A stretch of 57,011 nt of DNA from Kiritimatiellia bacterium. Lineage in GTDB: Bacteria > Verrucomicrobiota > Kiritimatiellia > CAIQIC01 > Lenti-01. This document shows positions 6,398-49,550 of this stretch, piece by piece (position 1 is the stretch's first letter; every line of letters starts with the position of its first letter). A model generated the notes under the pieces. That model did not search any database, was not told where the DNA came from, and saw only the letters and a program-made list of their open reading frames with translations. The stretch is from NCBI GenBank assembly GCA_045627965.1, contig JAZQOP010000315.1, positions 1-57,011 of the forward strand, given 5' to 3'. A program made the translations under genes and the position numbers.

Positions 6398-6412
6398 CGT
6401 TGCATTCTCCGA

Positions 6413-9400
6413 TTAGTATCCAATCCTCGTCACTCGGAACGGCACTGTAACCGCCTCCTTCGCCTCGATTTGCGAAGGCGGCGCTCGCATCAGTTCATAG
6501 TGGAACTGGGTGCTGTTCTCCGGCATGGCCAAACTCACCTCATCCGCCCGCACCAAACCATGGTTTTCCAAGCGGAATTCACCATAATAGGTTTCGCCGA
6601 TCTTCATGTCCGGCAGTTCAATCAATGTCGGCGTCACCGTTACCACAGGGAATGGCACGTCTGTCTTGAATGTCATCTCGACGTTGATCATATATTCGTC
6701 AGTAAGGGTTGTTTCCGTGACGATAAAATCGACCTCGACGAGATTCAGGTTCAGGTGGACGCTTTGGACCTGCGTGGCGCCCGGCTGGATCCAGATGCGG
6801 CCGGTGGACTGCTCGTGGTCCGAGGCCTGGACCGTGTAGCGATAGGAGCCTTCGGGCAGGTCGCGGAAGAAGGCTTCGCCCTGGGCATCCGACGTCAAAT
6901 TGGTCGTCAGGTAGGAATCTTCGCGCTGCAGACGGATCAATGCGCCCGCCAAGCCTTCCGTAATCGTCCCGCCCAGGCCGATCGTCCCCGTATAAAGGTC
7001 AGTGACCTTGAACTGGGCGGCGCCGGTCGATGCCGTGCTGACATGGACGAACACGCGCACCTGGCGATCCGTATGGTTATCCGCCGTGAACGCCAGATGG
7101 AACTCGTAGGTTCCCTCCGCGACTTCGACCGATGGCGCGAAGCTGACGAGGACCTGGCGGCGTTCGTCAGGCTCCAGATCGCCCAGCGTCGTCGACGTAA
7201 GCATGCCCGCCCATGCCGGTGCGGCCGAGCCATCTGCGGCAGTCAGCGCCACCTGCGTCCCGCGCAGCGTCGTAAAGCCGCTGTTCCAAAATTCCAGCGA
7301 CGCCTGGACCGAACCACCGACTGTCACGCCGACCTCCGGCGTGGAAGGAGTCCAATTCATGGACGCCTCCGCATTCACGAAGCGGCACGTCACCGGCACC
7401 GTTCCCCAACCATCGGCCGGCCCGTTTTCACTGATGACCCGCAAGATGATCGTCCCTGTTTCGGGCGCATTCATGCCCGGCGTCACCGTGAACGGCAGGG
7501 AGCCGCTTGCGTTGGCCGCCACGCGGGCCAGGACCATATCGCTACGAACCGAGACGTTTTCCATCAGGGCACCGCCCGGCTGATCTTCGGCAAGGATGGC
7601 CAGCGCCGCGTTCGTCAAGGCGAAGTCCGGCCCCACCTTCACGCTTGCCTTTAGTTCGCGCGACTGGCCCCGTCGTTCCGTCAGCGAGAAGAACGCCGGC
7701 GAGACGTCAGCCGTTGCCACTTGGAACTGCAACTGTTCGGGACGCGCGGTCACGCTCGGATGAATGGCAGAAACCGAATAGATGCCCCCGGCCCCCGGCA
7801 GATATTCCATCGACCAGGCGCCGTGGACATCCGTCATGACGGTCTGCTCGGACTCAAAGCCATTCAGCATGACCACGACCTTTACGGGTACGTTCCCCTG
7901 GCCGGCACCGGTGTTGCGGTTAAAGGCCATCCCGCGAATCGTAAAATTCGTCGGTCCGAAGGAGAACTCCGGCGCCACCTCTGTTGCCTCGACGCGATAG
8001 ATTGTTTCATGCAAGGTCACCTCCTTGCTCGCGGAAAGACCTGCCATGTCGGCTTCGTCCGCCCAGCCCAGGTGATAATGGATCTGCCCGATTTCCACGA
8101 CCAGCCACACCTTGTCCGGCGAACCGGCGGGCACCGACAGCGGGATGTTCGCCGACTGGAAGGTGTTGCCGGACGGAACGCGGGCGACCGTCCGCCCATC
8201 CGAGAGGGTGCTCACGTTGCTCCCCGTGCGTTCCTGGCACCATGCGCGGGCCAGGACCATCCCATCCTCGTTCTCCAGCCGCACCTCAATCTCGCCGGCC
8301 GTTCCATTAGCCCCGGCCGTAACGATTTCGACCTCTTCCGCACTCGTGTTCCGCAGACGGAAACGAACCGACGATTCACCGCCGCGCAACAGTTCGGCGT
8401 TCAGGACCTCAAGCGATAGCTGGGCCGCGCCGAGGCTGATTTCATCCGAGGATTCGATCTCCATTTCACCGGCCCCCATGGTTCCGGTCAGGCGGTTCGT
8501 CAAGACGGTGACGAGCACATTCGTGCCCTCCTCGTGTCCGCCGACCATGACGGACACCTCGGTACTTCCTCCTGCCGGTACGACGAACATGGAGCTTTCC
8601 AATGTTTCGCCGTTTGCCGCCACATTCAGCTTCAGGCCGCTCACGTCCTGCGTTCCCGTATTTGTCACGTCATACCACAAGCGATTCATGACGCCGCTGT
8701 ACCAGGTCTGGTTTGTCCGCAACGTGGCCGACACCGCCGGCAGCCACATCTCACGCGCGACGCTTTCATTCCCGTTCCCCGGATCGATTGCCGTCACGCT
8801 GTATGTCCGCTCGCCCTGCGCCGCCGTGTAGCCCACATCCGTGAACGACGTGGTCATGGTGTCCAGCGTGGCCAGCAAGGCCTCCACATCGCCGCTGCCG
8901 CCGTAGACGTTGAAGCCACCGATGTTGCCCGGTTCCGAATGCGTCCAGGACAGGACCGGGGCGTTTGTCCCGACCACCTGCGCCTTCAGGCTGCTAACAG
9001 GCAGGAGAGCCAGGTTCGTGTAGGCGCAGGGCGACAATCCGCTCACGTTCCCTACCGAGTCGCGAGCCCTGACCTGGTAGTAGACCGGCCCCTGCGGTGG
9101 ATTCTTGTCCACCGCCGCCGGCAACGTCGCACGCGTCTCGATGGCCACAAGCGACGAGATATCCTCGGCACAGGCCTCGCCGCGATAGATTTCATAATAG
9201 AGCGCATCGACGGGCGCCCAGGCCATGTAGAGGCCGCTGCCCGTCAGGATCAGCTCGGGCGCTTCGGGGACATCGGGCGGCGTCGCATCGCTGACCACGC
9301 GCACCACGTTCCCGACCGCGCCTGTGGAAACCTGGCCATTTGCCGTCCGCAGGCTTGCCACCGCATAGTAGTTCGTCGCATCGCCAGCCATCTCCTCCCA

Positions 9401-39400: not shown

Positions 39401-39979
39401 CAAGGCCGCGCACCCCGAGAACACGCCGCCCTGCAGCGTCTCGACACCGCGTCCAATTTTCACATGCACCAAATTCGAGCAGGCGCCGAATGCCTTTTCC
39501 CCTAAAACGGTCACGCTGTCGGGGATGACGGCCTCTTCCAGCTTCGAACACCCCTCAAACGCCCCTTCGCCGAGTTCTTCCAGGCCCTCGGGAAAATCGG
39601 CCTGCACCAGGTTGGCGCAACCGGCAAACGCATAGGCCCCCAGCGACCTCAAACCGGCCGCAAGCGTCACGTTTGTCAGCCCGCTCAAGGCAAAAGCGCT
39701 CGTCCCGATATTCGTCACGGTGGAAGGCAAAACCACATCCGTCACGCCAGCGCGCGCGTAAAAAGCACCTTCCGCGAGCTCCGCCACGGGCAATCCGTCC
39801 AGGCTCGCCGGGACCGACACGGGGCCATCGCCACCGGAATAGCCGACAATCCGGGCGCCGCCATCCCATTCCTCATATTCGAAGTCGCCGCATACGGCAG
39901 CTGGGGCAGACGCTCCCCAGCCGAAGAGTCCGAGCACGCCCGCCAACCATGCGCTGGTCCAGTTTTTCATCGTCTTCAT
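6413..39979 (-). CDS. Giant secreted multidomain protein, 11,188 aa, a putative surface adhesin or fibre. Order: signal peptide, BspA-type LRRs, 14 beta-helix/InlB-B-repeat-like modules, CUB-like insert, three Gly-rich beta-helix modules, FN3/Ig-like stalk.
   Basis: A single uninterrupted ORF in the track. The N-terminus MKTMKNWTSAWLAGVLGLFGWGASAPAA looks like a Sec signal peptide. AGGAG abuts the first ATG and lies 9 nt from the second ATG at 39970, so the true start may be 39970. Recognisable domain motifs run along the whole length (see sub-features). Confidence 0.93.
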   Translation of the reverse strand: MKTMKNWTSAWLAGVLGLFGWGASAPAAVCGDFEYEEWDGGARIVGYSGGDGPVSVPASLDGLPVAELAEGAFYARAGVTDVVLPSTVTNIGTSAFALSGLTNVTLAAGLRSLGAYAFAGCANLVQADFPEGLEELGEGAFEGCSKLEEAVIPDSVTVLGEKAFGACSNLVHVKIGRGVETLQGGVFSGCAALRTVELSEGLETISDSAFQGCGIERLAIPDSVKCVQDSAFSGCCNLTEITWGGGLTDLINGAFSYCSGLTEVIIPDSVTNIYGGPFDCCYGLTNVVVGDGVLDMCRGSWFMDCTNIERLVIGSGVKEIKCGAFSNLRALKELVLSEGLEKITDGSFGGCAIERLVLPDSLKCLDSSAFAGCTNLKEIVWGAGLQEVKIGAFSGCHGLTDLVIPATVTNLYGGAFSGCIGLTNIVIGEGVQDLSTSVFSGCTNLERVVVGGGVTNLTSGAFSGCSKLRAIELHEGIEVIQNSAFYGAGIERLVLPDSVAVVDYSAFSGCSNLMEIVWGDGIREVKNGAFSYCPRLAEVVIPNSVTNIDGGPFDNCVGLTNVVVGDGVRDMCRGYWFSGSTNIERLVIGGGVRNIQCGAFNNLRALKELVLSEGLEKITDSSFSGCPIERLVLPDSMRYVGESAFGGCSNLTEIVWGNGIRDVRNGAFSGASQLREVVLPNSVTNVDGNPFSGCYAVTNLVVGDGVKNIENSWCYGLTNLQHLVIGNQVTNIGDSAFCSTYPLKEVVIPNSVTHIGSCVFCGDGQIERLVIGDGVEYLTNGVFTCGLTGVVSLVVGGGVTNLTSTPFSFPNLRELDIHDGVLSITDGAFSGYAKLERVSLPATLKVLSNSAFAGCSSLKKVDLPEGLTDIMNGAFSSCASLEELVIPDSVTNLCCSAFSGCASVTNLVIGEGLTGICGALSGLSSLRHVAVGGNMKQLGCSIFSGCTQLSDVELKEGLETIWESAFSGTAIQQLVLPDSVTLLDGGAFSGCKGLTNIVWGAGLKKIGSGAFSGCTGLSSVEIPDGVEALEGGAFSGCSGLTNAVIGDGVPNISQGIFSGCTNLERVVVGAGIASLGNSEFNGMGKLSEVVLQEGLQRISYYAFQGTALERLVLPDSVTYVGENAFAYCSNLTKIVWGAGIGTVQNSAFTGCTGLTDVVIPDSVTNLLGGAFSGCSGLTNAVIGEGVTDLCQGIFSGCTNLEHVVVGGSLEHVGCGAFSGMRKLVAVDLHDGIRVIDQSAFAATGLERLALPDSVTNIDSSAFSGCLNLTGIDWGTGLAKIGYGSFAGCSALAELRVPDGVESLGEQAFKGCSGLEGIWLPASVTEVGRDAFAGCTHGGIIHLAAGSTLTAEDLRVTAGAKEWLVVREGADMLLEAEGVAWTFVPDGNGGALLTGLLPMSAGSATVPSQVEGLAVTGIADGVCANCPNLTDLILGDGVTVIGAGAFAGCTGLTNVVLGTGVEMIGEGAFEGAPLDVVEALVWGEGAVTPRWAVVGAGQTATFAADTDGIALFEGWTGQLGISETNETVTWSFGAVPGHRGRMEAYFGAIWVGGEGADDENAGTRDAPKATLQAAVDAAADGGAVLALAGTYGAVATAGRSVAVIGWDGAESCIMDGQGAGRCATLLDVTETNQPVSESATLLAGWTLTNGVAAADVGGGALGGNLRWCLVTGNTAEMGGGAWHARLDHCQVVGNTASADGGGTCGGTLSWSAVTGNRAQNGAAAVEASLDGCQVFGNTGTNSVLQNATLKDCSVTENAVLEAGAIHDGGAALRCEYWRNVDGGGVVAAAVELDNCVVAKNTGNGVRGGTATSCTVVDNSGWGVDGAQLRNSIVWGNGSNGNCSSWSSSWIQGQYGVSDPLFVDSANGDYQLLGVSPCVDAGSADYATGSATDVRGAPRVQGTAPDMGAYEGCVAGVKVVVEGAGTVEPMRATLAAGTESVTFAVTSNGAGEREFLGWQVDGELVGTETTYVWANMGVSGVLTALFGSGTVYVDAATGDDANPGTSAAPVATIQKGVDLALAGDRVAVAPGTYASFSTADKAIVIDGTDGASVTFVAGGNGTRCATLGSASGQTNTLVRGLTLMNGLLGTSGNGGGACYGTLEDCVVSGNTASYGGGTYFSVLRDCVLSGNAATNRGGGAYYGELENCVVTGNSAQDGGGTSYARVRGGSVSTNTSRGWGAAAFEGYLEGVEVRGNTAGGDGGAMNCGFMRDCTVEGNESGGSGGATMNVSMTNCVIRGNVARNDGGGTCNGTIEGGEIVGNRANYGAGCYGGTLTGVSIRDNVSLNQGGATYSSTLSNCLVANNSGGGVQYGTATHCTIVGNSGWGVYYPTVRNSIIWGSLTNLYNTSDLLFSCADTGNGGVQGVTAHPLFVDSAAGDWRLLDISPCVDAGSMVYATALAVDLAGGARIQGEGPDMGAFEGGIRAVCVVMEGRGTVTPSTALLEDAGDELTFTAGGEREFLGWKVDGELVGTNATYVWSNTGASGVLTAMFGSGTVYVDAATGNDANDGTSTAPVATIQRGVELALAGDRVAVAPGSYEAFSTANKAIVVEGTAGASNTVVLGRAGVRCATLGGSYGDTNTLVRGLTLTGADLGTSADGGGAIYGTLEDCVIHGNTANYGGGAYYSVLRNCVLEGNVARNWGGGAYCGSLDECEVRGNTANYAGGLNSANATNCVLEGNVALYQYGASDNGVLTGCEIRNNRAQGYVVGYGTLSNCVISGNEANSYVTYYSTLYDCVVENNAVTNSLMYGNSATRCRIVGNRMQNGGWAVSSMTLDNCVVANNEGNGVSGGTLTHCTVVGNSEQGVNYPTMRNSIVWGNATNYFNTGNVTYSCLQGGQGGEGCITNNPLILAVQGGDWRLLDASPCVDAGDPAYADGAGTDLLGAARLQGLAPDMGACEGGVRAVRVEIVGLGTVTPPAAALEGAGTEIVFTAEGLEGRPFLGWEIDGEVVGTEATYVWPNNGEAGLLTARFGSLCVYVDATAGNDANDGSAEHPVATIQRGVDLAGSTDEVRVAPGTYAPFSTANKLIVVVGTAGASETVVVGSSGMRCATLGNNSYHTNTVLRGLTLTGADLGSSNSGGGANFGTLEDCVIRGNTASYGGGAYYSVLRNCVLEGNVAVYSGGGIYYGMLADCDVRENTANYGGGTYGTAIEGGTICSNVANYSGGGCYNGTVAGAEISWNQATNNGNGGGAYYATLSNCNVVGNRSRYGAGVNGGTHARCRFEWNEGTNSIICNGAALTDCEVVGNRVLVSNDGLHYGGQATRTLYLANTNAGYGTTENVTLDNCVVANNVGNGVRYGTVTHSTIVGNTGWGVYYPTIRNSIVWGNGLENYDSVNMFYSCVDQGGGGTGCILEDPLLVSVASGDFRLLDGSPCADAGSAQYADAAGTDIAGAPRVQGAGPDMGAYEGTVVGVGVSIVGTGRVTPMSALLGESVVFTAVPADEHHPFVRWEIDGTVVGTGLTYEWGEVTAAGQLTAVFGDWGLHVGGEGADDSNDGSLEHPLASIQRAVEWPEPIEVIWVHPGTYAPFCSTNRKVRIESTDGAAVTIVDGGGTGRCARLTMQTSYSSSDTNTILVGFTLRNGRTTSNGENMGGYGGGALCGQLEDCVLEGNYASSYGGGSYYSILHRCRLIENRANYGGGIYGGNAYDCLLVENEAISRGGGMCYGSVYQCTIWGNRAPQGAGMYGGAMFNSICGGNGGEDSIQVDNTSVYYSCIVGERTPSYEYCNLYSDPMFANVADGDFRLLAGSPCIDAGYAGYVYTTTDLAGAARTQGRASDLGAYEGAVTQEAAIRVSVYVDGVGSVSPMSVDVPMYGLARFTATEDGRHAFDGWWWQGRCVGTNLTLSLNGVTEGGVLTARFRGADVHVGGAAADDANDGSAEHPVATLQRGVALTRQGDTILVAPGVYAPVATSNRLIHLKSVAGPERTIIDGGGTNRCADFGSTTNTQMTGFTLRNGWNDNSGGGAYYGSLDRCILTGNSVSNTYNGSCYGAAAADSVLKNCLLTGNTSMRDGGAVAWAYLYGCTIWGNSGSNTVYSPNALYNTIIWSNQAWSGTNVVWGATPWNCCIEGGTTANNCVTAMPLFVDSAADDFRLMMGSPGVDSGDNAYACGEMDLQGRARIQDGRVDMGALEGAASIIRVEIEGIGRVDPMALDTTSDSDAVFLAQETGYPFLGWKVNGEWVGTGKAFAWETEPKCGGLTAVFEGCIWVDAENGDDGNPGTEESPLKTLNAAVMKVPEGGLVKVLPGTYGSVKTFGKTLRMESVAGAVETIIDGGGTARCADLGGGSEDTNSVLVGFTLTNGTNSPSAVECGHLEHCILTGNMDGYAAVRTWLEDCELYGNSGPGTAYDCTMIRCVIRDNVQTYIWGAAERCQLDNCLIVGNSSNGVYGGTATHCTIAGNGGAGVVNCTTLRNCIVWGNAIASTYGSNAFSCVEGGGATNGCITSNPRLVNLTAGLCFLQADSPCMNAGDASFATNSAMDVEGKTRVQGGAPDMGAYESDGTVWWGMPVVVEGAGRVIPAGGVTTNNGMVVFTAEGDDFLGWWQNGVLLSMDRTWTWGPVTGAGSTLTAKFDPTMWVDAEHGDDSWPGGRNSPKATIQAAVDAATTGMIVKVKPGTYGPIVTGGRSIRIESTDGAAVTIIDGGAVARCADLGTTGTNSVVAGFTLRNGGSETGGAALYGKLEHCVVTGNTNSYGVTRGTCLEDCLMTGNNSGYGMAWQCTLVRCQLTDNDVGLRGAAQDCQLENCLVARNSYTGVYGGTATHCTIVNNSECGVYNKPTLRNCIVWNNGYQYSSYYGSCYYSCLQGGGSGTGCISSDPMLVDVGAGNYALQLGSPCIDTGSASYSSSTPLDLAGNARRYGSRPDMGAYENQGAVTATVAVTGTGSVSPTNVTAVFGQSVVFSATGENGASFLRWEIGGVTVGTSTTYEWIAGTEDVALTAVFESYASACAWAVGSGYVEPTSASAATGEHVLFAATGLNGASFLRWEIAGETVGTSPTYDWIAGTGLVELRAVFETAALWVDATTGNDENDGREEHPLQSIQSAVLRSGDGDVILVGPGIYGPINTESKTLRIVGTAGPSLTIIDGGGASCCAMLGDLQGIYSDEPMTNSVLEGFTLRNGVGQYYQGYTYGGGALGGVLLRCVVTGCSAYAGGGAAGSCLESCLVTGNTADYAGGIFIGQAVNCTISGNSATYEGGADAYGATIINSILWGAGENTVYMDAGTLAYSCVEGVDASAGEGLVLDNPLFVDAENGDYRLLAGSPCLNAGTVADWLSELDLAGNARVQDNIVDLGAYEGATDMTGMLRVSVAVNGNGMVSPMGAWVEEGGSVSLTATAHEGTKFVEWQQDGVSAGTNLTLTMENVQAAMTVTAVFVDLMRVDVSASGNGTVSPMGAWLDEGENIVLTATPTEGWSFAEWRRDGETAGTNTTLVVDNVQGATEIVAVFLDLSRPECWWVDSAIGDDANTGTSNAPLATIQRAVELAYSGETIWVCPGVYEPISTTNTNLHIESTEGAEATIIDGGGTDRCVSFWDRYEGNTGSTNRSGNVLIGFTLQNGNVGDSIGGGLIRGVAEDCVLKNNVAYNGGGAYASDLIRCDVIGNLATSAGGGVCQCDLRVCTVQSNQAQYSGGGSCAGVAMDCTFVRNQAGQHGGGSYQSELLRCVVEENRVGSGYYGAGTYDCHLTACVVRRNAGAYCGAGAYYGYAQDSVFVENEASSYAGGTYYGTFVNCLIYGNTASYAAEGYDSTWLNCLASAAGGDYIRMDHCCVPSTNAFRYGSFTTGVVGQVEFASLEGGDYRMMMGSPAVDAGWNGYVSNQVDLVGMDRILNDVVDIGPCEGVVEAERIRVKVIGHGNVEPMLHWVTGGEDVTFTALPDGVHPFVEWRIEGESVGTETTYVWANIQGNGILEAVFAPATWWVDAAAGNDGNAGTADAPLASIRQAVSLADSGDVIMVHPGVYGPFETVTTNLLLESTDGAQTTIIDGGGTNRCVAFWHGNVGNYSWGETNKSGNTLKGFTIRNGNAQNNPYTTYAGGLMNGAAVDCIFTNNSAGEGGAAVLSELTNCELADNTANYNGGAVSYCQLTDCVLTRNQARDGGGAYYSTLLDCVLEENGGFAWNGDPYTYGGGTYYGTAEGCTYRGNMAGYDGGGAYYGTLRNCNLVSNVVRGNTGSAYGGGTYGATLWNCVLEGNVVNANYSCGGGADYSTLHACIVRGNRAEGANSYGGGLEGCTAYDCLVEGNYAEYGGGGTYNGMYVNCLITGNQADGQGPEGYYCTWKNCLASGAGGYSVTMDHCCVPSTNAYVYGSFTTGLVAEVQFANAAIGDYRLMAGSPGVDAGDNGYVVNSVDLLGAPRIQNHVVDMGPCEGELSGMVRLQTEVIGSGRVEPAGALVSAGEDVTVRAVEDGMHPFVEWRAYGSTIGTELELTWQDVSESLTLTAVFAPGVLWVDAAMGDNANPGTEAAPKASIQAAIDAASAGDEIRVLPGTYAPIKTGGLAVRIIGVAGAESTIIDAALDLANGVTNRCALLMSRNPNYSMSEMVTETNSILEGFTLRHGWADNYNRALGGGVCGGTVRNCVLEENQAYGGGGGAALAVLENCVIRHNSMSSGGYGGAGTFQCQLTDCLVEENDARYGCSGGGTYGGTLERCVVQRNLAGSSGAGSWSPLVARNSLFVSNVCTNVTSTGGGIYGNGYGSSKVVGCTVVNNTAGYAGGVDYGEYWNCLIWGNQSSFHSMNENARNVAMLSHTCVEGGYGGAWDGLWAADPCFVNAAEGDYRLADGSPYVDAGTSDDTDLGAFDLAGTARVQGGGVDLGAYEGAFAVETPAGYWQVRALADGAGTVSPEVQLVAAGGTAELVASWGDERHAFAGWWMGDTQVGTSRLLKLTGVASNVVVTAKWAIGELWVDAANGSDLCDGSEELPFATIGEAVAAAWVNDVIHVRPGTYDAVAVDKAVRIESTDGYALTTLSGGASGSATLAQGAVLAGFTLGTWENQDLSTDHPTATVEVQGDGTVSPVRATAETGAQVAFTAMPASGVTFLRWELKGQTVGTNSTYIWTAGTENVALTAVFVTLSGNRWYVAAAGDDGNAGSPASPFRSIQAAVNRASDGDTVLVGPGIYSSVETSNKRLQVVGTSGASQTIIDGGGNAPCISIQDGGDSFNVENVVGSVTLNGSSNGGTTSINPGETYRFYDSGGANGNYGNSERLTYTFRNATGGALALTFVTAGGESCCDYLAVSNGSTQVSRQTLGSFVNWNYTTDSGVLSFGFYSDSSVTGAGWEALISAAGGGASTNMVFEGFTLQNGGTTGEVAVLTSGLLKDCVIQDCQSASAVVSSSRLEDCSIIRCTGNVVVGDATAVRSQMVGNTAICQVVNNAQLDSCLVADNVGNGVLGGLAANCTIAGNSGWGVNGASLRNSIVWGNGVSGTYGSILASCLQDSEATVTGDPLFVDAACGNYALRDGSPCIDAGYANFATNSPTDLAGNERIYGAAPDMGAFEFGPRTGTSGGRLERCRVAGAVERSELESCLVDGLLRSATAVNCTLTGCVGTQASRLANSIVAGSIEEEGMGNVLVHSWMGDALDDIFVDAARGDYRLRSGSACVDAGDSSLPQEALDLEGNPRVQGEAVDMGAIEGAVEGWWVTAECRGSGNVEPQREFVAPGSELTLEGSTECTTSYWLTNGAFAGRGTSLTLANVSEDVKVTWVVRSMEETPTLAGVVLGLDGRPVDGAIVRAWTAASEEGGAETLLAEVETEAGTGWWAIAVPDGWIGRVAAEWGCGTFEPAEVAFEEVVADAQETDFVMTDAYPLQAPILSRPQDGGYAVNEALLTWAGSDCAVIYEVLAGHEGGELAVLGTTTETCWNWAFGEDGTYEWAVRAGNAAGEWTNSETGRFEGLDALVLTGQVSVAAGDDIYEGKLLLADGATIEFDGVHRLKGLILTNGAVVTHPACETGVVHSVDLVLDKMLWVGADSSVDVTGKGWPTGVGGMTGTNSISAGGSHGGKGGSSSLQPYGDQTNPHEPGSGGAQSAGGGVIRIQAREMVLDGTVMANGATNTQSTGAGGSIWLDTGVLSGNGFVMAEGGAATTTSSSYAYTGGGGRVAIWAATNLGFEVESQMSVSEGRKQNGYYLGDPGTIYMMTGPAPLRVDKAEPSGWAQWLGTWTVQFNQDVDAATFDVSDATMEGPSGAVTASRLMRLDERTYKVIFPTTTEQGQHNLMIGPAVQGGLFGAQMSAAEGGSVVVLSETPEMPTVNGWMAGAGVTNWVRNSWLTITGTRTDGTALWVDDYQKVAEGNGEWSWYSSYSNGERDMRFWCVDLAGNHSETNTYHIFVDYNSPYVTQKSPQDKAYFPSEAPPAQVDVRFWEMGSGMDWDQTTLSLAKDGAVVEGTWTHGSTNAAFTPAVPFGIGTWQVSVTPKDRAGNTGETVTWRFTVTDLPYDTELTSSTTVATNGTALEGKSVLVNGTTLTLNGTHHLANLWVVNGGQVTHDVSTTNWTGYMDVTADGEIWVESGSRIDATGKGYGAKRTAPNNTTVGGATGYAGGSHGGYGGVSSGTTGEVYDDFRHPALPGSGGGNGNGGGVIALAAPRIIVDGTVTAAGAENSYGSGAGGSVRLDAGVLGGIGNVSAAGGASQYYGAGGGGRVSVAYQALTEGFVLEEHVNVSGGARYGSPAAGSGTLYVAPAGEEPVVKILRGSSAAGGVAALFLPEDAEPYDGLAVVSGSGVVVRAKSGLSALTNAEVRLENQAHLEVQEPLALRALSLTNGATLTHPVATTNMTYAVNLQVADTLSVSADSSIDVRGKGYRPGRTYQNATAGASTGRSGGSHGGLGGAYDGTPGATYGDMYSPIWPGGGSGTANTGSAGGGVVRIVAGTLDLEGNILADGANPPNGNSAGGAGGSVYVEATTLKGAGWMMARGGGGSGNGQVGGGGGRIAVYYSDMTEFDAEHLSSAAGTSGLSEAAAEDGTVWIGERVPVRVLGMSPEGLVTTAVECIRFEFSTQVREGTFGTDALTVVGPAGVVEVTNVEQVAASGLAGSVWVAWLDGGATAEGDYSLTLAPTLVSVSGMEMLEAYTNWMRLDWTAPVPPVLDGWTMAPATNDLRVTSITIGGMRPEVESIWVNGTLRAAEADGEWSWSTSLSQGLNTLRLKARDQAGNESDEVEYRFWVDNVAPTVDSVTPGNGATLATSPSNVVVTYRDATTGVDAARCALEVRRGDTPVEGAPGTPSVGTNRAEFVFAGTLPDGAYTVKITLTDLMGNSREQQTTFTVDTMPPAVPVAEGVLSPTTISSQTLHGWKEAGSTVWVNGRQASGSQGATNWSYTVSLEGGDNEIVLFAQDAAGNRSSETIVAIYYEDNAPGAVTITADGQGNGTQVKLAWTNYNEYENGNDIASYRIYMSTDGAFTNSMLATFRASVSSGTKRYTVDNLSRNTTYWFAVAARDTAGNERRRVVSVPATTMDVVAPADTTNIWFDCGASNLVVHWMPAANGDGDLDGYVVKFDADAGDGEMVPATNAELAVRRDHLLGATAYPVRIRAYDRDGNMSSGKTATGATWLANPVADIADVYEQTVDLAWTAAEPTNLVRRYAVFVSTQEFASVEGMEALVWTKALTNQVANLVNGQTYWFAVAAENIAGGMDPAVVASAAVPRPDTEGPSIGNLRWDGIPLTSGTALRADGTLAVSATDRAGVARIEVRIDGRLLGSSSASTNATASWKVSTTEADGPYELEIRALDTKGNESILTTNLMVQLALPGAPTITSPATEKMLSKTRLSVTGTGAKNADMVNVYVNDVLAAQWAPASDGAFAGYVTLGDGVNRLKAAGQNRAGQGVFSTPVRVIVDSSVPEAPTTLKATAQEGGTVKLTWAGALDAKGYWIYRSRTPFDSHLSATRVNSKLLTATTYTDETPLDTTYYYRVMAVNNAGTGSDLSEIASATCDRTPPTAILSFRTAGTKVGETYGRGLVTVTVTVSEKLQAIPFVSLTVAGNTPITPTLRQSATNECEYSGIIEVGDATPTGTAVASFSGRDVAGNRGTVILGGTAIELDSAGPRLAALALLPSAPVENNPDSPGRITVTMTFAEDDLPSDTPTLRWMLTETSPEWTPVALAQGGQSGTWIGSFDLPSTAGQPSELLRFSYEGRDELGNLGTTIGGESQFLVYQGELPGLDAPGGLEWTAGEGGRVSLAWRDVAGASGYAVFRGPNAGALEPIAVSPTTGWEEMAGDATNYYAVASLRTANGQVSTGAVGNVVRVVSDATPPDVPEAPELILTGSGLYMAWAPVDALYYEIYRGEACAEDISSLVAIETRATLPAAVDKNPPQGPVYYQVRARDSVGNVSGLSPCAYTNLALLPVSSLKAQVVGTNAPVLSWTHSEPGNIGGFNVYGGSGDVEALLATLDTMTTSFTDVGYTAAQGERTYSVTAIDPGNGNESVAREMWLPAVSATLRTNQTWYSGVMNRLWYDVTNTGTQDVSGLKLNVAANGETLESSMFVVPAGGSTEVSVMVGGHEEGTNVLVTVLTNRLTGTMGAGEMEIESSDEISLGAAQLSLEVLNAELLRGGESSVRFRLRNTSAEEVEIVTAGANGTAGEIEVRLENEDGMVLARAWCQERTGSNVSTLSDGRTVARVPSGNTFQSANIPLSVPAGSPDKVWLVVEIGQIHYHLGWADEADMAGLSASKEVTLHETIYRVEATEVAPEFSFGPTNFTIRGMAFNRNTGAGQGNVPVKVVVMLNGFESEQTVMTDVHGAWSMEYLPGAGGIYSVSAIHPSVTARPEQLQFQVATADVSPAFFSLTERRGQSRELKASVKVGPDFALTNAALAILAEDQPGGALMENVSVRSDMVLARVAANASGSLPFTVTPGMNAPETGTIILRVISENGPADGWGTVPVTCRFVNAEASMNWTPSTPEVGVTVGGSVQASLEFWNSGFTTLRGTQVALTAADGSAAPAWAGMLTSTTLGDLEPDERRQVLVSFAPSVEVAEGTYEFHLAFTADNHTDRQVRVFVHVSTASTGAAQFKVTDLYTGTIGLGGTITEGLAGALIRLQREDSYLTTNLTSDAQGEAFFRDLPEGSYRYTVQASDHEQSTGRIWIQPGATQVQSVHLNLNLVEVDFIVTETTLTDEYMINVEMTFKTDVPFPVVTVTPTLIELPDMKIGETYYGEFRLENHGLVRADEVSLAMPENSTQFHYELMRAPPSQIEAKEAVTVPFRVTRIGY
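8760..12000 (-). repeat. FN3-like domains (at least seven), mixed with Ig-like domains, in the C-terminal stalk
   Basis: Hallmark strand motifs are present: YRIYMSTDGAF...TYWFAVAARDTAGNE, GYVVKFDAD...YPVRIRAYDRDGNMS, RYAVFVSTQEF...TYWFAVAAENIAGG, GYWIYRSRTPF...YYYRVMAVNNAGTGS, GYAVFRGPNAG...NYYAVASL, YYEIYRGE...VYYQVRARDSVGNVS and FNVYGGSG...RTYSVTAIDPGNGNES. Confidence 0.7.
13100..16310 (-). repeat. Three glycine-rich beta-helix modules (about 15600-16310, 13980-14690 and 13100-13830), each followed by Ig-like domains
   Basis: All three share this pattern: SxIDxTGKGYxxG...GGSHGGxGG...(Y/V)(G/D)Dxxxxxx[1-2]PGSGGG...GGGV(I/V)(R/A)(I/L)xA...(L/V)DGx(I/V)xAxGA...xGAGGS(I/V)x(L/V)(D/E)...LxGxGxxxAxGG...GGGGR(I/V)(A/S)(I/V). 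Confidence 0.6.
16890..35345 (-). repeat. Tandem array of 14 modules. Each is a DUF1565-like cap, PbH1-type right-handed beta-helix repeats, and a closing motif that resembles the choice-of-anchor-Q domain. The 14 closing motifs are followed by zero, one or two InlB-B-repeat-like beta-sandwiches.
   Basis: Each cap reads VYVDAxxGxDxNxGxxxxPxATIQxxV...GDxIxVxPGxY. Each end reads NSI(V/I)WGN...PLFVDxxxGDYRLxxxSPCxDAG...DLxGxxR...D(M/L/I)G(A/P)xE. The 14 end motifs lie near 34.26, 32.74, 31.29, 29.77, 28.64, 27.60, 26.50, 25.39, 24.11, 22.49, 20.91, 19.56, 17.53 and 17.12 kb. The sandwiches match GxGxVxP...FxAxxxxxxxF(L/V)xWxxxGxxVGTxxxYxW...LTAxF. Confidence 0.75.
18140..18520 (-). other. CUB-like domain inserted into the 13th beta-helix module
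   Basis: Sequence: GSVTLNGSSNGGTTSINPGETYRFYDSGGANGNYGNSERLTYTFRNATGGALALTFVTAGGESCCDYLAVSNGSTQVSRQTLGSFVNWNYTTDSGVLSFGFYSDSSVTGAGWEALIS. It fits the CUB pattern (Y.n...C/T.w.i.....i.L.F..f..E..CCDYl.v.dG...lg.f.....s.g..l.v.F.SD.sv...GF.a). It sits where the other modules have only RCAxLG...TNTxLxGFTLxNG. Confidence 0.5.
35560..39815 (-). repeat. BspA-like leucine-rich repeats (LRR_5 type), unit ~23 aa. I estimate about 60 units. They include an 825-nt (275-aa) higher-order repeat.
   Basis: The pattern IPDSVTxIGxxAFSGCxxLTxVxIGxGV recurs throughout. The string ELVLSEGLEKITD(G/S)SF(G/S)GC(A/P)IERLVLPDS recurs exactly 275 aa later. The corresponding DNA near 38.13 kb and 38.96 kb is nearly identical. 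Confidence 0.8.
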
Positions 39980-48710: not shown

Positions 48711-49550
48711 CTAATGCGTCCCGTAGGCCTTGCGCGCCTTGAAACCGCCCGGCTTGCGGCCGAACCCGCCGGAAGGGCCGCCAGCCTTTGCGCCAAAGCC
48801 GCCCTTTTTCCCGAATGGCTTCTTCCCGCCGAATCCTGGCTTCCCGAAGGGCTTCTTGCCGCCAAAACCGGGCTTCCCGAAAGGCTTCTTGGCAAAGGGC
48901 TTCTTGCCGAACGGCTTGCGGCCGAAGGGCTTATGGGCGAACGAACCGCCCTCCTCCTCGGCGCCATCGAACCCCTCGCCATCGCGGAACGGACGTTCGA
49001 ATTTCCGCCCGAAGGGCTTCTTGGCGCCGAAACCGGGCTTCCCAAAAGGCTTCTTCCCGAACGGCTTGGGGCCGAAGGGCTTCTTGCCGAACGGCTTGCG
49101 TCCGAAGGTCTTGCGGGCGAAGGAGGCCTCCTCCTGGAGCTCCATCCCGTCCTCGGCGGGCAGGTCCTGGCCGACGCTCTCCAGAAGCTGGCCCTCCTGG
49201 TCGGGCGCCGCGTCTTCCGCCTCACAGGGCTTGCGGCGGAAGGGCTTCCGGGCGCTGAAGGGCTTCTTCCCGAACGGCTTGCGTCCAAAGGGCTTCTTCC
49301 CGAACGGCTTGCGAGCGAAGCCTTCGCCCTCGGCGCGGGCGCCGTCGAAGGCCCCCTCTCCCTCGCCGTCGAAGTCGCGAGGACGCTTGAACCCGGGCTT
49401 GGGGCCGAAAGGCTTCCGGTCGCCGAACGGCTTGCGCCCGAACGGCTTCTTGCCCGCCTTTTCGTGAACGGCCGGGCGCGCAAATTTCTTCCGGGGGCGC
49501 CCAAAGGACTGGAACCCTGTTTCGCTGGAACTGTCGTCGTGGAAGCTCAT
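48711..49550 (-). CDS. Highly basic low-complexity protein with KPFG repeats (279 aa), function unknown
   Basis: The ORF starts with ATG and has an AAAGG motif 8 nt upstream (10 nt from its AGG core). It is co-directional with every neighbour. I count 16 exact KPFG motifs plus variants (KPGFG, KPFS, KTFG), arranged in four basic blocks separated by three acidic patches. All six frames are open here, so the strand call rests on context (see the finding). Confidence 0.55.
   Translation of the reverse strand: MSFHDDSSSETGFQSFGRPRKKFARPAVHEKAGKKPFGRKPFGDRKPFGPKPGFKRPRDFDGEGEGAFDGARAEGEGFARKPFGKKPFGRKPFGKKPFSARKPFRRKPCEAEDAAPDQEGQLLESVGQDLPAEDGMELQEEASFARKTFGRKPFGKKPFGPKPFGKKPFGKPGFGAKKPFGRKFERPFRDGEGFDGAEEEGGSFAHKPFGRKPFGKKPFAKKPFGKPGFGGKKPFGKPGFGGKKPFGKKGGFGAKAGGPSGGFGRKPGGFKARKAYGTH
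48730..49470 (-). repeat. Degenerate tandem DNA repeat with an approximately 15-21-nt period, underlying the KPFG repeats
   Basis: Strings such as gaagggcttcttgccgaacggcttgcg recur across the interval. They are reflected in five overlapping repetitive ORFs in the track. Confidence 0.7.

What the first reader, a model, noticed from the sequence alone, without database searches (positions are those of the whole stretch)
6413..39979. Uninterrupted 11,188-codon ORF encoding a modular giant surface protein
A single 33.6-kb reading frame is rare in bacteria. Its combination of parts matches no characterised giant adhesin family that I know. It is not RTX/Bap-like, not Rhs/YD, and not an autotransporter. 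The parts, in order, are a Sec signal peptide, about 1,400 aa of Cys-containing BspA-type LRRs, 14 beta-helix modules with DUF1565-like caps, each followed by zero to two InlB-B-repeat-like sandwiches, a CUB-like insert, three Gly-rich helices, and a long FN3/Ig stalk. The beta-helix modules might be catalytic (polysaccharide lyase or hydrolase fold) or purely structural. Fourteen in series would then be either an enzyme array or a rigid fibre.
Basis: partly seen in the sequence, partly recalled or inferred. Interest (0 to 1): 0.78.

Follow-up and report, generated by a model that had tools for sequence, protein, structure and literature searches.

The report
Giant modular surface protein gene
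A rumen Kiritimatiellae bacterium carries a real, uninterrupted 33.6-kb gene for an 11,188-residue exported protein that looks like a huge non-enzymatic adhesion fibre; such giants are known in this bacterial group, but this one sits on a gene island recently swapped between diverged lineages.

Summary
The ORF is real: window 6413..39979, minus strand, 11,188 codons, ATG to TAA, chance about 1e-170. Three other assemblies call it uninterrupted at 11,244-11,298 aa. Its internal repeats are too diverged at DNA level to mis-assemble, and pN/pS is about 0.3.

- Signal peptide and about 1,450 aa of BspA-type LRRs.
- 14 capped right-handed beta-helix modules, with 17 InlB-B-like sandwiches between them.
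- A sub-threshold CUB-like insert.
- Three copies of a Gly-rich all-beta domain that has no database model.
- A stalk of mixed Ig/FN3-type domains.

It is less unusual than claimed. The module family is huge, tandem arrays in proteins of 1,000-7,749 aa are common in Kiritimatiellota and Verrucomicrobiota, and proteins of 10,000 aa or more are already reported in PVC bacteria. The conserved module residues are structural, which favours a fibre or adhesin over an enzyme array.

New findings:
- The gene and its neighbours form a lineage-specific, low-GC3 island right after rng. The island is nearly identical (pS 0.006-0.013) between lineages whose flanking genes differ at pS 0.15-0.41.
- Alleles differ by in-frame indels, one nonsense allele and a replaced module block.

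No anchor was found and function is untested. Verdict: a new variant of a known kind, of moderate interest.

The parts
6413..39979 (-). Giant ORF, 11,188 codons plus TAA stop
   Evidence: Three other assemblies call it uninterrupted.
39899..39979 (-). Sec-type signal peptide (aa 1-27): MKTMKNWTSAWLAGVLGLFGWGASAPA, then AV
   Evidence: Read by eye from the sequence: basic n-region, hydrophobic core, A-x-A site. No predictor was run. There is no other TM-like segment in the protein.
35561..39898 (-). BspA-type, Cys-containing leucine-rich repeats (aa 28 to about 1473); proposed binding head
   Evidence: Pfam LRR_5 E=2e-205 and 1.6e-86, with the last hit at aa 1417-1473. NCBIfam partial hits to adhesin HupY/LrrG and Gli349.
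17108..35335 (-). Array of capped right-handed beta-helix modules (aa 1549-7624). Twelve are complete: M1 34250-35335, M2 32720-34012, M3 31283-32494, M4 29756-31051, M5 28631-29530, M6 27584-28387, M7 26486-27361, M8 25376-26257, M9 24098-24928, M10 22478-23626, M11 20897-22243, M12 19547-20659. There is also a lone N-cap at 19088-19291, a CUB-split module at 17513-18772 and a capless mini-helix at 17108-17482. InlB-B-like sandwiches of about 67 aa lie between modules.
   Evidence: HMM census from the protein's own copies: 14 N-caps, 14 C-caps, 17 sandwiches. Pfam DUF1565 and Flg_new_2. NCBIfam choice_anch_Q and LIC10774. AF2 model of aa 4943-5372 has pLDDT 91.2. Foldseek hits beta-helix proteins.
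18158..18478 (-). CUB-like insert (aa 7168-7274) between the N-cap and the body of the last capped module
   Evidence: Pfam CUB_M02D8_5_3rd E=1.6e-5, 25.2 bits, below the cut-off of 32. Tentative.
15575..16273 (-). Gly-rich all-beta domain, copy 1 (aa 7903-8135)
   Evidence: HMM E=1.9e-104. Alignment A3 has 23 invariant columns.
13946..14656 (-). Gly-rich all-beta domain, copy 2 (aa 8442-8678)
   Evidence: AF2 pLDDT 77, pTM 0.82, all beta. No significant PDB fold or sequence match. No Pfam or NCBIfam model.
13091..13813 (-). Gly-rich all-beta domain, copy 3 (aa 8723-8963)
6416..13090 (-). Stalk of mixed Ig/FN3-type domains (aa 8964-11188): Big_13, fn3, Glucodextran_B, Big_7, CARDB, CarboxypepD_reg (aa 11008-11076). 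It ends ...VPFRVTRIGY with no recognised sorting signal.
   Evidence: Pfam. NCBIfam finds no family in the last 1,188 aa. No LPXTG, PEP-CTERM or TM segment. No internal BLASTP self-similarity.
17480..27979 (-). Low-GC3 block inside the gene (aa 4001-7500; GC3 0.55-0.69 against 0.72-0.82 elsewhere in the gene). The ENA allele diverges to about 68% identity from aa ~4220 onward.
34982..34984 (-). Codon 1666: TGG (Trp) here, TGA in the ENA allele
   Evidence: P0132 and P0278 both start at M1676.
39991..40737 (-). g1: a 248-aa secreted orphan protein directly upstream, 11 nt before the giant's ATG. It ends ...VRLYRLKVLDE.
   Evidence: No Pfam or NCBIfam hit. Its only database match is its own cluster.
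2..6397 (-). Downstream gene, at least 2,132 aa, cut by the contig end. It has its own signal peptide, a beta-helix, CarboxypepD_reg domains, a PKD domain, Asp-rich TSP3-like repeats and a Cys-rich tail. GC is 48% and GC3 is 0.56.
41221..41245 (-). Intrinsic terminator after rng. It marks the end of the housekeeping operon and the approximate edge of the island.
   Evidence: 10-bp stem, 9 G:C pairs, then a T-run. Synteny with relatives and the strain-identity switch both end here.

Best explanation
This is a genuine gene for a giant, Sec-exported, non-enzymatic surface fibre of the 'fibrillar adhesin-like' kind, in a rumen Kiritimatiellae bacterium.

Proposed working (inferred, not shown). After export, the N-terminal block of about 1,450 aa of BspA-type LRRs acts as the distal binding head. 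The roughly 6,000-aa series of capped right-handed beta-helix modules, jointed by small Ig-like sandwiches, forms a long semi-rigid rod, and its flat faces may also bind glycans. The three Gly-rich beta-solenoid-like units and the stalk of mixed Ig/FN3-type domains form the cell-proximal part. That part would be held at the surface non-covalently, possibly through the co-transcribed secreted proteins g1 and the downstream protein of at least 2,132 aa.

Shown here: the gene, g1 and the downstream gene form a separate transcription unit on a lineage-specific island of atypical composition. That island has recently moved between diverged lineages and varies between strains, as expected for an exposed, strain-specific surface structure.
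For: Reality of the gene:
- Searches show the ORF, with a chance probability of about 1e-170.
- Three other assemblies call it uninterrupted.
- There are no near-identical internal DNA repeats.
- Two strain comparisons indicate purifying selection. The first shows 22 synonymous against 13 non-synonymous codon differences. The second gives pN/pS of about 0.3 over 3,326 codons.

Export and adhesin-type head:
- The N-terminal signal peptide is read from the sequence.
- LRR_5 scores E=2e-205, with partial matches to the adhesins HupY/LrrG and Gli349.

Structural rather than catalytic modules:
- In the 12-module alignment the invariant residues lie in the caps and in a per-rung Cys/Asn ladder (L-x-x-C-x-V-x-G-N-x-A).
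- Every invariant charged residue lies in the C-cap.
- Modules differ by insertion or deletion of whole rungs, from 267 to 446 aa.
- The same pattern holds when 45 external homologues are added.
- Sequence models of lyase and hydrolase families align only to the N-cap.
- A close structural neighbour, RbtA, is a cell-surface beta-helix protein with no stated enzymatic role (PMC12643943).

Stalk: Ig/FN3-type domains.

Island and variability:
- Synteny with 80 relatives ends at the rng stop codon.
- GC3 is 0.73 in the giant and 0.56 in the downstream gene, against about 0.91 in the flank.
- pS is 0.006-0.013 in g1 and the giant, against 0.15-0.41 in mreB through rng.
- A terminator follows rng.
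- Alleles measure 11,188, 11,244, 11,278 and 11,298 aa. There is also a W1666* allele and a replaced module block.

Literature:
- Huge bacterial proteins are enriched in PVC phyla and are mostly surface or attachment proteins (PMC11573180).
- About half of fibrillar-adhesin-like proteins have no known anchor (PMC8286594).
Against: - No binding, localisation or expression data exist.
- No anchor or outer-membrane translocation signal was found, so the protein could be released rather than retained on the cell.
- The orientation (LRR distal, C-terminus proximal) is an assumption borrowed from other adhesins.
- The top structural matches of the module are mostly enzymes (GH136, PL9, PL6, CE8), and Kiritimatiellae are polysaccharide degraders, so individual modules could still be catalytic.
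- The conservation argument only excludes an active site shared by all modules.
- A nonsense allele shows that the gene is dispensable in at least some cells.
Confidence: 0.6

Rival explanations
1. The protein is a tethered multi-enzyme array. Some or all of the beta-helix modules are polysaccharide lyases, hydrolases or esterases. The protein presents many glycan-degrading active sites on one chain, and the LRR and Ig parts serve targeting.
For: Foldseek's best PDB matches are GH136 lacto-N-biosidases, Pel9A, PL6 alginate lyase, pectin methylesterases and rhamnogalacturonan lyase, at E about 1e-5. There are weak Pfam and NCBIfam hits to Pel9A-like_beta_helix, PelN and NosD. By background knowledge, Kiritimatiellae are specialised polysaccharide degraders.
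Against: The enzyme-family matches cover only the N-terminal cap: profile positions 12-53 of 370 and 31-109 of 437, and 5-80 in the PDB search. No acidic or basic residue in the helix body is conserved across the 12 modules or across 45 external homologues. Modules gain and lose whole rungs, which would disrupt a fixed active-site groove. TM-scores are low, 0.24-0.38. Most solved beta-helices are enzymes, so the hit list is biased toward them.
Confidence: 0.17
2. The protein is a secreted matrix, sheath or cell-cell cohesion protein that is not anchored. It is released and builds an extracellular network, for example by binding particles or partner microbes, rather than standing on the cell as a fibre.
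For: No anchor, TM segment or sorting signal was detected. It is co-transcribed with two further secreted proteins. Many relatives end in a C-terminal ...FYRVxV motif that this protein lacks.
Against: Nothing argues directly against it. The tools used here cannot separate it from the anchored-fibre model. An unrecognised PVC retention mechanism remains possible, since about half of known fibrillar-adhesin-like proteins also lack a known anchor (PMC8286594).
Confidence: 0.15
3. The ORF is an assembly artefact or a decaying pseudogene, kept open by chance or produced by collapsed or mis-joined repeats.
For: All assemblies seen are short-read metagenome assemblies. An ENA contig has a premature TGA at codon 1666, a second stop at aa 4617, and a divergent tail. 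Allele lengths differ by 56-112 codons.
Against: The chance of such an open frame is about 1e-170. Four assemblies keep the frame open over more than 11,000 codons. The internal repeats are at most 81% identical over 79 nt, and the longest exact repeat is 29 nt. pN/pS is about 0.3. The 15.9 kb shared with SRR21150887 has no gaps.
Confidence: 0.04
4. The protein is a contact-dependent weapon or predation device, like the giant proteins proposed for Omnitrophota or the Rhs/CDI toxins.
For: It is giant, exported, sits on a mobile island and varies between strains. The giant genes of Omnitrophota have been linked to attack on other cells (bioRxiv 10.1101/2023.11.21.568195).
Against: No toxin, peptidoglycan-hydrolase, Rhs/YD, TPS or SecA-like domain was found anywhere in the protein. 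The C-terminus is a plain beta-sandwich. No immunity-like small gene follows it; the next gene is another large secreted protein.
Confidence: 0.04

Closest known systems
Multi-module 'choice-of-anchor Q' / DUF1565 beta-helix proteins of Kiritimatiellota and Verrucomicrobiota MAGs (e.g. MCL1921591.1 = P0127, 2,734 aa, 11 matched stretches; NCC49951.1 = P0131, 4,583 aa; P0152, 7,749 aa)
   Same: They share the same capped beta-helix module at 35-53% identity, arranged in tandem arrays within large secreted proteins.
   Different: All are uncharacterised and shorter. None of the 150 best hits shares giant aa 7751-11188, and only P0211 and P0215 share the LRR head. Many end in a ...FYRVxV motif that the giant lacks.
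L088 (JAEEGL011216333.1), a 3,784-aa open frame cut at both contig ends, from a 70%-GC organism
   Same: Its residues 2528-3777 are 65% identical and collinear with giant aa 7631-8873 (sandwich, Gly-rich units, Ig domains). Another stretch is 53% identical to module M9 plus its sandwiches.
   Different: The module order differs: it has only two beta-helix modules, and Gly-rich units lie both before and after them. Its N- and C-termini are unknown.
BspA-type LRR surface proteins (Pfam LRR_5; Tannerella forsythia BspA, streptococcal HupY/LrrG)
   Same: The N-terminal 1,450 aa are the same repeat type, with the F-x-G-C-x-x-L signature. In those proteins the repeats mediate adhesion (background knowledge).
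   Different: Those proteins are about 1,000 aa and lack the beta-helix array. The NCBIfam equivalog thresholds are far from met (208 bits against 1,250).
Fibrillar adhesins (Monzon et al. 2021, PMC8286594), e.g. SiiE, LapA and the RTX adhesins
   Same: The logic is the same: one very long chain with a putative adhesive domain at one end and a long stalk of beta-rich domains. They are strain-variable and often lack a recognisable anchor.
   Different: This protein has a Sec signal rather than T1SS signals, and no RTX repeats. Most of its stalk is capped beta-helices and sandwiches rather than tandem identical Ig repeats, and its Ig stalk is non-repetitive.
Rhombotarget A (RbtA) of Acinetobacter baumannii, PDB 9CDU/9CDV
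   Same: It is a cell-surface protein whose N-terminal domain is a right-handed beta-helix, and it is among the top structural matches (E 1.5e-5, TM 0.37-0.38; PMC12643943).
   Different: It has a single 617-aa chain and is a rhombosortase (GlyGly-CTERM) substrate, and no such signal occurs here. Sequence identity is 14-16%, and its function is also unknown.
Giant proteins of Omnitrophota and other PVC bacteria (bioRxiv 10.1101/2023.11.21.568195)
   Same: They come from the same superphylum, are in the size class of 10,000 aa or more, and are predicted to be extracellular, beta-rich and adhesion-related.
   Different: Those proteins feature dockerin, SecA-like and novel antiparallel beta-helix tubules. 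None of these was detected here.

Membership tests
BspA-type LRR proteins (Pfam PF13306 LRR_5) | Matches to the LRR_5 model above its gathering score (27.7 bits) | tested here: met
   671 bits (E=2e-205) for aa 1-1000 with 9 stretches, and 287 bits for aa 1001-2000. The last unit is at aa 1417-1473.
Choice-of-anchor Q domain-containing proteins (NCBIfam NF041518) | Match to the 58-position domain model above its cut-off of 25 bits | tested here: met
   42.9-93.1 bits in seven of the ten 1,000-aa chunks, those covering aa 1001-8000. The protein's own HMM finds 14 copies.
Choice-of-anchor Q domain-containing proteins (NCBIfam NF041518) | A C-terminal sorting or anchoring signal of some type. The family name refers to variable anchors; this is my recollection of the naming convention, not a tested fact. 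| tested here: not met
   No NCBIfam family hits the last 1,188 aa. There is no LPXTG, PEP-CTERM or TM segment.
Fibrillar adhesin-like proteins (PMC8286594) | A stalk of multiple beta-rich stalk domains | tested here: met
   17 Flg_new_2-like sandwiches, plus Big_13, fn3, Glucodextran_B, Big_7, CARDB and CarboxypepD_reg domains.
Fibrillar adhesin-like proteins (PMC8286594) | An adhesive domain at one end | tested here: inconclusive
   The N-terminal LRR_5 block is of an adhesin-associated type. Binding itself cannot be tested here.
Fibrillar adhesin-like proteins (PMC8286594) | A cell-surface anchor | tested here: not met
   None was detected. The source paper reports that nearly half of such proteins also lack a known anchor.
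Catalytic beta-helix carbohydrate-active enzymes (PL9 Pel9A-like, PL6, GH136, CE8) | Right-handed parallel beta-helix fold | tested here: met
   The AF2 model has pLDDT 91.2. Foldseek gives probability 1.0 to 7v6i, 1ru4, 7dmk, 5olq and 1xg2.
Catalytic beta-helix carbohydrate-active enzymes (PL9 Pel9A-like, PL6, GH136, CE8) | A family-level sequence match across the catalytic helix body | tested here: not met
   Pel9A-like_beta_helix matches only profile positions 12-53 of 370, and PelN only 31-109 of 437. The PDB profile hits cover only the N-cap.
Catalytic beta-helix carbohydrate-active enzymes (PL9 Pel9A-like, PL6, GH136, CE8) | A conserved catalytic acid/base or Ca-binding constellation in the groove | tested here: not met
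   All invariant charged residues of the 12 modules lie in the C-cap. The helix body conserves only Cys, Asn, Gly and Leu ladder positions, plus a near-invariant Arg beside the first Cys. Sites specific to single modules are not excluded.
RTX / Bap-type giant adhesins (T1SS) | RTX nonapeptide repeats with a C-terminal T1SS signal, and no Sec signal | tested here: not met
   No HemolysinCabind or RTX model hit. An N-terminal Sec-type signal is present. Ca_tandemer scores 40 bits, below its cut-off of 50.
Autotransporters / two-partner secretion (T5SS) | A C-terminal beta-barrel translocator or an N-terminal TPS domain | tested here: not met
   There are no such Pfam or NCBIfam hits. The last 1,188 aa carry only beta-sandwich domains.
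Rhs/YD-repeat toxins | YD repeats and a C-terminal toxin domain | tested here: not met
   No hits in any chunk.

The most novel reading that the evidence does not exclude
The g1-giant-downstream block may be a self-contained, horizontally mobile 'surface-fibre cassette' of PVC bacteria, using a secretion and retention route not yet described. In this reading, partner proteins carry an unrecognised C-terminal ...FYRVxV tag, as g1 and many relatives do, and dock the anchorless giant at the cell surface. The unannotated Gly-rich beta-solenoid domain, found almost only in very large proteins, would be a new structural or adhesive element. The central low-GC3 block of beta-helix modules would be swapped by recombination to change binding specificity between strains.
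Probability: 0.15. Interest if true: 0.65.

Novelty: new variant of a known kind. Interest (0 to 1): 0.42.

Why it matters
Kiritimatiellae are common but uncultured rumen and gut bacteria, and how they attach to feed particles, host mucus or partner microbes is unknown. A gene that takes up about 34 kb, is kept under purifying selection, and has recently moved between lineages whose housekeeping genes differ by about 13% is likely to be ecologically important for them. It is a concrete target for metaproteomics and for expressing single modules.

The work also flags two reusable items. One is a widespread Gly-rich all-beta domain with no Pfam or NCBIfam model and no solved relative. It marks very large secreted proteins in many environments. 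The other is a recurrent extreme C-terminal motif in PVC secreted proteins, which could be an undescribed sorting tag.

By size and general type, however, the protein fits a class already described for PVC bacteria.

Tried and rejected
- **Oversized queries.** Searching the whole protein or 5,000-aa pieces against the 5.8-billion-protein index failed on length or time limits.
- **Blind spot of the word-index search.** It returned only proteins of 832 aa or less, and not the query's own near-identical 11,298-aa copy. It therefore cannot show whether giant homologues exist, so I used the exhaustive representative search instead.
- **Representative library.** It does not hold the full-length giant either, only fragments (P0132). 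Absence of full-length homologues there is weak evidence.
- **Genome scan.** Giant aa 7880-8960 found no relative in 185,579 species-representative genomes. That mode reaches close relatives only.
- **First metagenome scan.** A narrower alignment, A4, worked.
- **In-frame continuation after the stop.** I considered that the open frame at 2..6412 meant readthrough, recoding or a broken longer ORF. I rejected this because the next gene has its own RBS, ATG and signal peptide, and the other alleles end at comparable lengths.
- **TGG->TGA at codon 1666.** I considered that TGA might be decoded as Trp. I rejected it as unlikely because the host's other genes use standard stops. A G->A transition at a Trp codon is also a very common way to make a stop codon (background knowledge). 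It was not tested directly.
- **RNA genes.** Rfam and tRNA scans of the window found nothing.
- **Partner g1.** It has no homologues outside its own cluster, so no conserved 'g1 + giant' gene pair could be established.
- **Gly-rich domain fold.** Fold and profile searches gave no significant solved relative. 'Beta-solenoid' rests on the AF2 secondary structure and the nature of the weak hits only.
Full report
**1.

The ORF finder lists 6413..39979 on the minus strand: 11,188 aa with an ATG start. Translation gives one terminal stop, TAA. From the coding-strand base composition a stop is expected every 29 codons, so the probability of 11,188 open codons is about 1e-170. The other five frames carry 41-443 stops. 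The long plus-strand ORFs inside the region are shadow frames typical of high-GC DNA. GC by codon position (0.60/0.52/0.73) is that of a coding sequence.

An open frame of 2,137 codons continues in the same frame after the stop. It is a separate gene: 15 nt downstream there is a GGAG, an ATG at 6397 and a new signal peptide, MKTMKQLTIWICACTIACLAMA.

**2. It is not an assembly artefact**

The window is a whole NCBI contig of 57,011 nt. The same locus occurs in independent assemblies.

- Logan SRR21150887 (42,948-nt contig) is 99.71% identical, without gaps, over the 15.9 kb I could read. Its giant gene is called at 11,298 aa.
- SRR21150960 (66,207-nt contig) calls it at 11,278 aa, and SRR21150981 at 11,244 aa from a later start.

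Inside the gene the longest exact DNA repeat is 29 nt. The best off-diagonal self-match is 81% over 79 nt, and the longer repeats are 72% identical or less. Short reads would therefore not collapse or mis-join the modules.

Substitutions between strains are biased toward synonymous changes: 22 synonymous against 13 non-synonymous codons in one comparison, and pN/pS about 0.3 over 3,326 codons in another.

One ENA assembly (ERZ27276720) is about 99.8% identical with no indels up to aa ~4200, but it has TGG->TGA at codon 1666. After aa ~4220 it diverges to about 68% identity, and it has a second stop at aa 4617. A second ENA fragment starts at the same Met1676. So an interrupted allele exists alongside the intact ones.

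**3. Anatomy** (aa coordinates; window coordinates are given in the parts list)

- **Signal peptide, aa 1-27:** Sec-type, read by eye.
- **LRR head, aa 28 to about 1473:** BspA-type LRRs with 3-4% Cys. LRR_5 scores E=2e-205.
- **Beta-helix array, aa 1549-7624:** HMMs built from the protein's own copies find 14 N-caps, 14 C-caps and 17 sandwiches.
  - The N-caps match Pfam DUF1565 and NCBIfam LIC10774.
  - The C-caps match NCBIfam choice-of-anchor Q (NF041518) and read DPLFVD..GDYRL..GSPCVDAG...DLxGxxRxxG..DMGAYEG.
  - The sandwiches are about 67 aa and match Flg_new_2, the 'divergent InlB B-repeat'.
  - The caps pair into 12 complete modules of 267-446 aa. The remainder are a lone N-cap (aa 6897-6964), one module interrupted by a sub-threshold CUB-like insert (aa 7168-7274; 25.2 bits against a cut-off of 32), and a capless mini-helix (aa 7500-7624).
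- **Gly-rich units:** three copies of one conserved domain at aa 7903-8135, 8442-8678 and 8723-8963. It has 23 invariant columns and the motif GGSHGG..GG...PGSGG...GGGVIxI...GAGGSxxL...GGGGRxA. Ig-like domains lie around and between the copies.
- **Stalk, aa 8964-11188:** Big_13, fn3, Glucodextran_B, Big_7, CARDB and CarboxypepD_reg domains with no internal self-similarity.
- **C-terminus:** it ends ...VPFRVTRIGY. No NCBIfam family hits the last 1,188 aa, and the whole protein has no LPXTG, PEP-CTERM or TM segment.
- **Absent families:** no RTX, Rhs/YD, autotransporter or toxin model hit any part.

**4. What the modules are**

AlphaFold2 on a sandwich-module-sandwich unit (aa 4943-5372, 56-sequence alignment) gave pLDDT 91.2. 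Foldseek against the PDB returns right-handed parallel beta-helices, all at E about 1e-5 with TM 0.24-0.38:

- GH136 lacto-N-biosidases;
- Rhombotarget A (9CDU/9CDV);
- Pel9A;
- a PL6 alginate lyase;
- pectin methylesterases;
- a phage tail fibre.

The viral library returns generic capped beta-helix, tail-fibre and DUF1565 proteins.

Sequence profiles of solved structures and of enzyme families align only to the N-cap. In the 12-module alignment the invariant positions are the caps and a per-rung ladder, L-x-x-C-x-V-x-G-N-x-A...GGG. All invariant charged residues (D, R, D, E) lie in the C-cap, and modules differ by whole-rung insertions and deletions. Adding 45 external homologues gives the same picture. 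There is therefore no active site shared by the modules. The simplest reading is a structural or lectin-like rod element. RbtA, a close structural neighbour, is itself a cell-surface protein with no assigned enzymatic function (PMC12643943).

**5. The Gly-rich domain**

No Pfam or NCBIfam model matches it. AF2 predicts an all-beta domain (pLDDT 77, pTM 0.82). Foldseek finds no significant PDB match: the best E is 0.22, and the weak hits are beta-solenoid adhesins, lyases and ice-binding proteins. A profile search of PDB sequences finds nothing.

A single-pattern scan of JGI metagenomes found 79 loci from varied environments. The open frames that carry the domain run from 1,000 to more than 6,859 aa, hold 1-7 copies, and are often cut by contig ends. 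It is thus a real, widespread, unannotated domain of very large secreted proteins.

**6. How unusual the protein is**

A profile of the 12 modules, searched against 1.84 billion representative proteins, matched 141,395 of them at E<=1e-3 and 19,146 at E<=1e-30. The 150 best are proteins of 1,000-7,749 aa with 4-25 matched stretches. The named ones are hypothetical, 'FN3' or 'PKD domain-containing' proteins of Kiritimatiellota and Spartobacteria MAGs. Tandem arrays of this module are therefore common.

Among those 150, only P0211 (3,213 aa) and P0215 share the LRR head, and none shares aa 7751-11188. The metagenome fragment L088 (3,784 aa, open at both ends, 70% GC) is 65% identical and collinear with aa 7631-8873 and 53% identical to the M9 unit. 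It has only two beta-helix modules, with Gly-rich units on both sides. That makes it a related giant with shuffled module order.

The literature already states that proteins of 10,000 aa or more are 'frequently detected' in PVC phyla (bioRxiv 10.1101/2023.11.21.568195). It also states that huge bacterial proteins are enriched in PVC bacteria and are mostly NRPS/PKS or surface and attachment proteins (PMC11573180).

One caveat applies. Neither large protein library returned the full-length giant itself, so they may under-report very long proteins.

**7. Genomic context**

All genes in the window are on the minus strand. Upstream lies a housekeeping operon, mreB-mreC-mreD-PBP2-rodA-rng, with GC3 about 0.91. 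It ends in a strong intrinsic terminator at 41245-41221. Three genes follow:

- g1, a 248-aa secreted orphan;
- the giant gene, 11 nt after g1;
- 15 nt further on, a secreted protein of at least 2,132 aa, with a beta-helix, CarboxypepD_reg and PKD domains, Asp-rich repeats and a Cys-rich tail, truncated by the contig end.

GC3 falls from 0.91 in the flank to 0.73 in g1 and the giant, and to 0.56 in the downstream gene. Within the giant, aa 4001-7500 has GC3 of 0.55-0.69, against 0.72-0.82 elsewhere. The ENA allele starts to diverge at the beginning of that block.

RNase G places the organism among rumen Kiritimatiellae. The closest species representative is goat-rumen MAG RGIG3636 at 91% aa identity, followed by RUG11196 and sheep-rumen RGIG6649 at 82%. 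In all 80 related genomes synteny stops at the rng stop codon, and none has g1, the giant or the downstream gene within 10 kb.

**8. Recent exchange of the island**

I compared the window with the SRR21150960 strain gene by gene.

| Gene | pS |
|---|---|
| mreB | 0.15 |
| mreC | 0.41 |
| PBP2 | 0.41 |
| rodA | 0.34 |
| rng | 0.31 |
| g1 | 0.006 |
| giant, first 3,326 codons | 0.013 |

DNA identity switches from 82-91% to 98.4-100% at the 3' end of rng. Three assemblies show the same structure, which argues against a chimeric contig. The island has therefore moved recently between lineages about 13% diverged in flanking DNA, or it swept through them by recombination.

Together with the in-frame length differences, the nonsense allele and the replaced module block, this matches the behaviour of strain-specific exposed surface structures. 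[quoted passage not shown]

**9. Interpretation**

- **Best explanation (about 0.6):** an exported, non-enzymatic giant fibre of the fibrillar-adhesin type. The LRR block is the binding head, the beta-helix and sandwich series is a rod that may bind glycans, and the Gly-rich and Ig part is cell-proximal. Retention would work through something not yet recognised, perhaps involving the two co-transcribed secreted proteins.
- **Shown:** the gene is real and under selection; the domain identities and folds; the absence of a shared catalytic constellation; the absence of known anchors; and the island's nature, recent transfer and allelic variation.
- **Inferred:** export, orientation, adhesion, and any role for the partner proteins.
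- **Rivals:** an enzyme array (about 0.17), a released matrix protein (about 0.15), an artefact or pseudogene (about 0.04) and a contact weapon (about 0.04).

**10. Verdict**

The claim that the protein matches nothing known holds only in the sense that no characterised protein has this exact order of parts. By size, taxon, module family and general logic it belongs to an already recognised class of giant PVC surface proteins. I rate it a new variant of a known kind, with interest 0.42. The more interesting results are the secondary ones:

- the 30-fold drop in synonymous divergence across the island boundary;
- the unannotated Gly-rich domain family;
- the recurrent C-terminal ...FYRVxV motif.

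Noticed in passing
window 39991-40737 (g1); proteins P0002, P0005, P0007, P0013, P0018, P0131, P0161, P0211: Many relatives of the beta-helix module, both single-module and giant, end in a shared extreme C-terminal motif ...G(P)[FY][FY]R[VI]x[VL]xx. The orphan secreted protein g1 ends the same way (...GPGPVRLYRLKVLDE), but the giant does not. No Pfam or NCBIfam model covers the motif. It could be the last strand of a common C-terminal domain or an unrecognised PVC sorting tag.
   Followed up: partly
window 2-6397, minus strand: A second very large secreted protein (at least 2,132 aa, cut by the contig end) starts 15 nt after the giant's stop, in the same frame. It begins with the same pentapeptide, MKTMK. 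Its GC is only 48% (GC3 0.56) in a genome of about 70% GC. It contains a beta-helix, CarboxypepD_reg and PKD domains, a Trp/Phe/Pro-rich segment, Asp-rich TSP3-like repeats, a Cys-rich region and a Gly-rich/Lys-rich tail.
   Followed up: partly
window 41,000-41,400 and locus L085: Between the window strain and the SRR21150960 strain, synonymous divergence drops from 0.15-0.41 (mreB through rng) to 0.006-0.013 (g1 and the giant). The identity switch lies at the 3' end of rng. This points to recent horizontal exchange or a gene-specific sweep of the island.
   Followed up: yes
window 34982-34984 (codon 1666); locus L004: The ENA assembly ERZ27276720 carries TGG->TGA at codon 1666. From aa ~4220 it carries a module block only about 68% identical to the window's, and it has a second stop at aa 4617. 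Another ENA fragment (P0132) starts at the same Met1676. Whether this is a true pseudogene allele, a strain mixture or an error is unresolved.
   Followed up: partly
window 17480-27979 (aa 4001-7500 of the giant): The central third of the gene has markedly lower GC3 (0.55-0.69) than its two ends (0.72-0.82). The start of this block coincides with the point where the ENA allele diverges. This suggests a mosaic origin or cassette-like replacement of modules.
   Followed up: partly
window 13091-16273; loci L088-L166: The Gly-rich all-beta domain has no Pfam or NCBIfam model and no solved relative. It occurs in 79 metagenome loci, almost always inside open frames of 1,000 to more than 6,859 aa, with 1-7 copies each. 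It is a candidate new domain family.
   Followed up: partly
window 41221-41245, minus strand: A strong intrinsic terminator (10-bp stem, 9 G:C pairs, then a T-run) lies directly after rng. It is followed by an AT-rich stretch of about 480 nt before g1. The island is therefore transcribed separately from the mreB-rng operon.
   Followed up: yes
window 48711-49550 and 49744-52470, minus strand: Upstream of mreB lies a 279-aa low-complexity protein with only weak, far sub-threshold hits to extensin-like and histone-H1-like models. Beyond it is a 908-aa protein that appears to fuse an extracellular solute-binding domain with an ABC permease domain.
   Followed up: no
window 54026-56980, minus strand: A 984-aa protein with fn3 and purple-acid-phosphatase-N-like beta-sandwich hits sits at the right end of the contig. 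Its open frame extends to the contig end.
   Followed up: no
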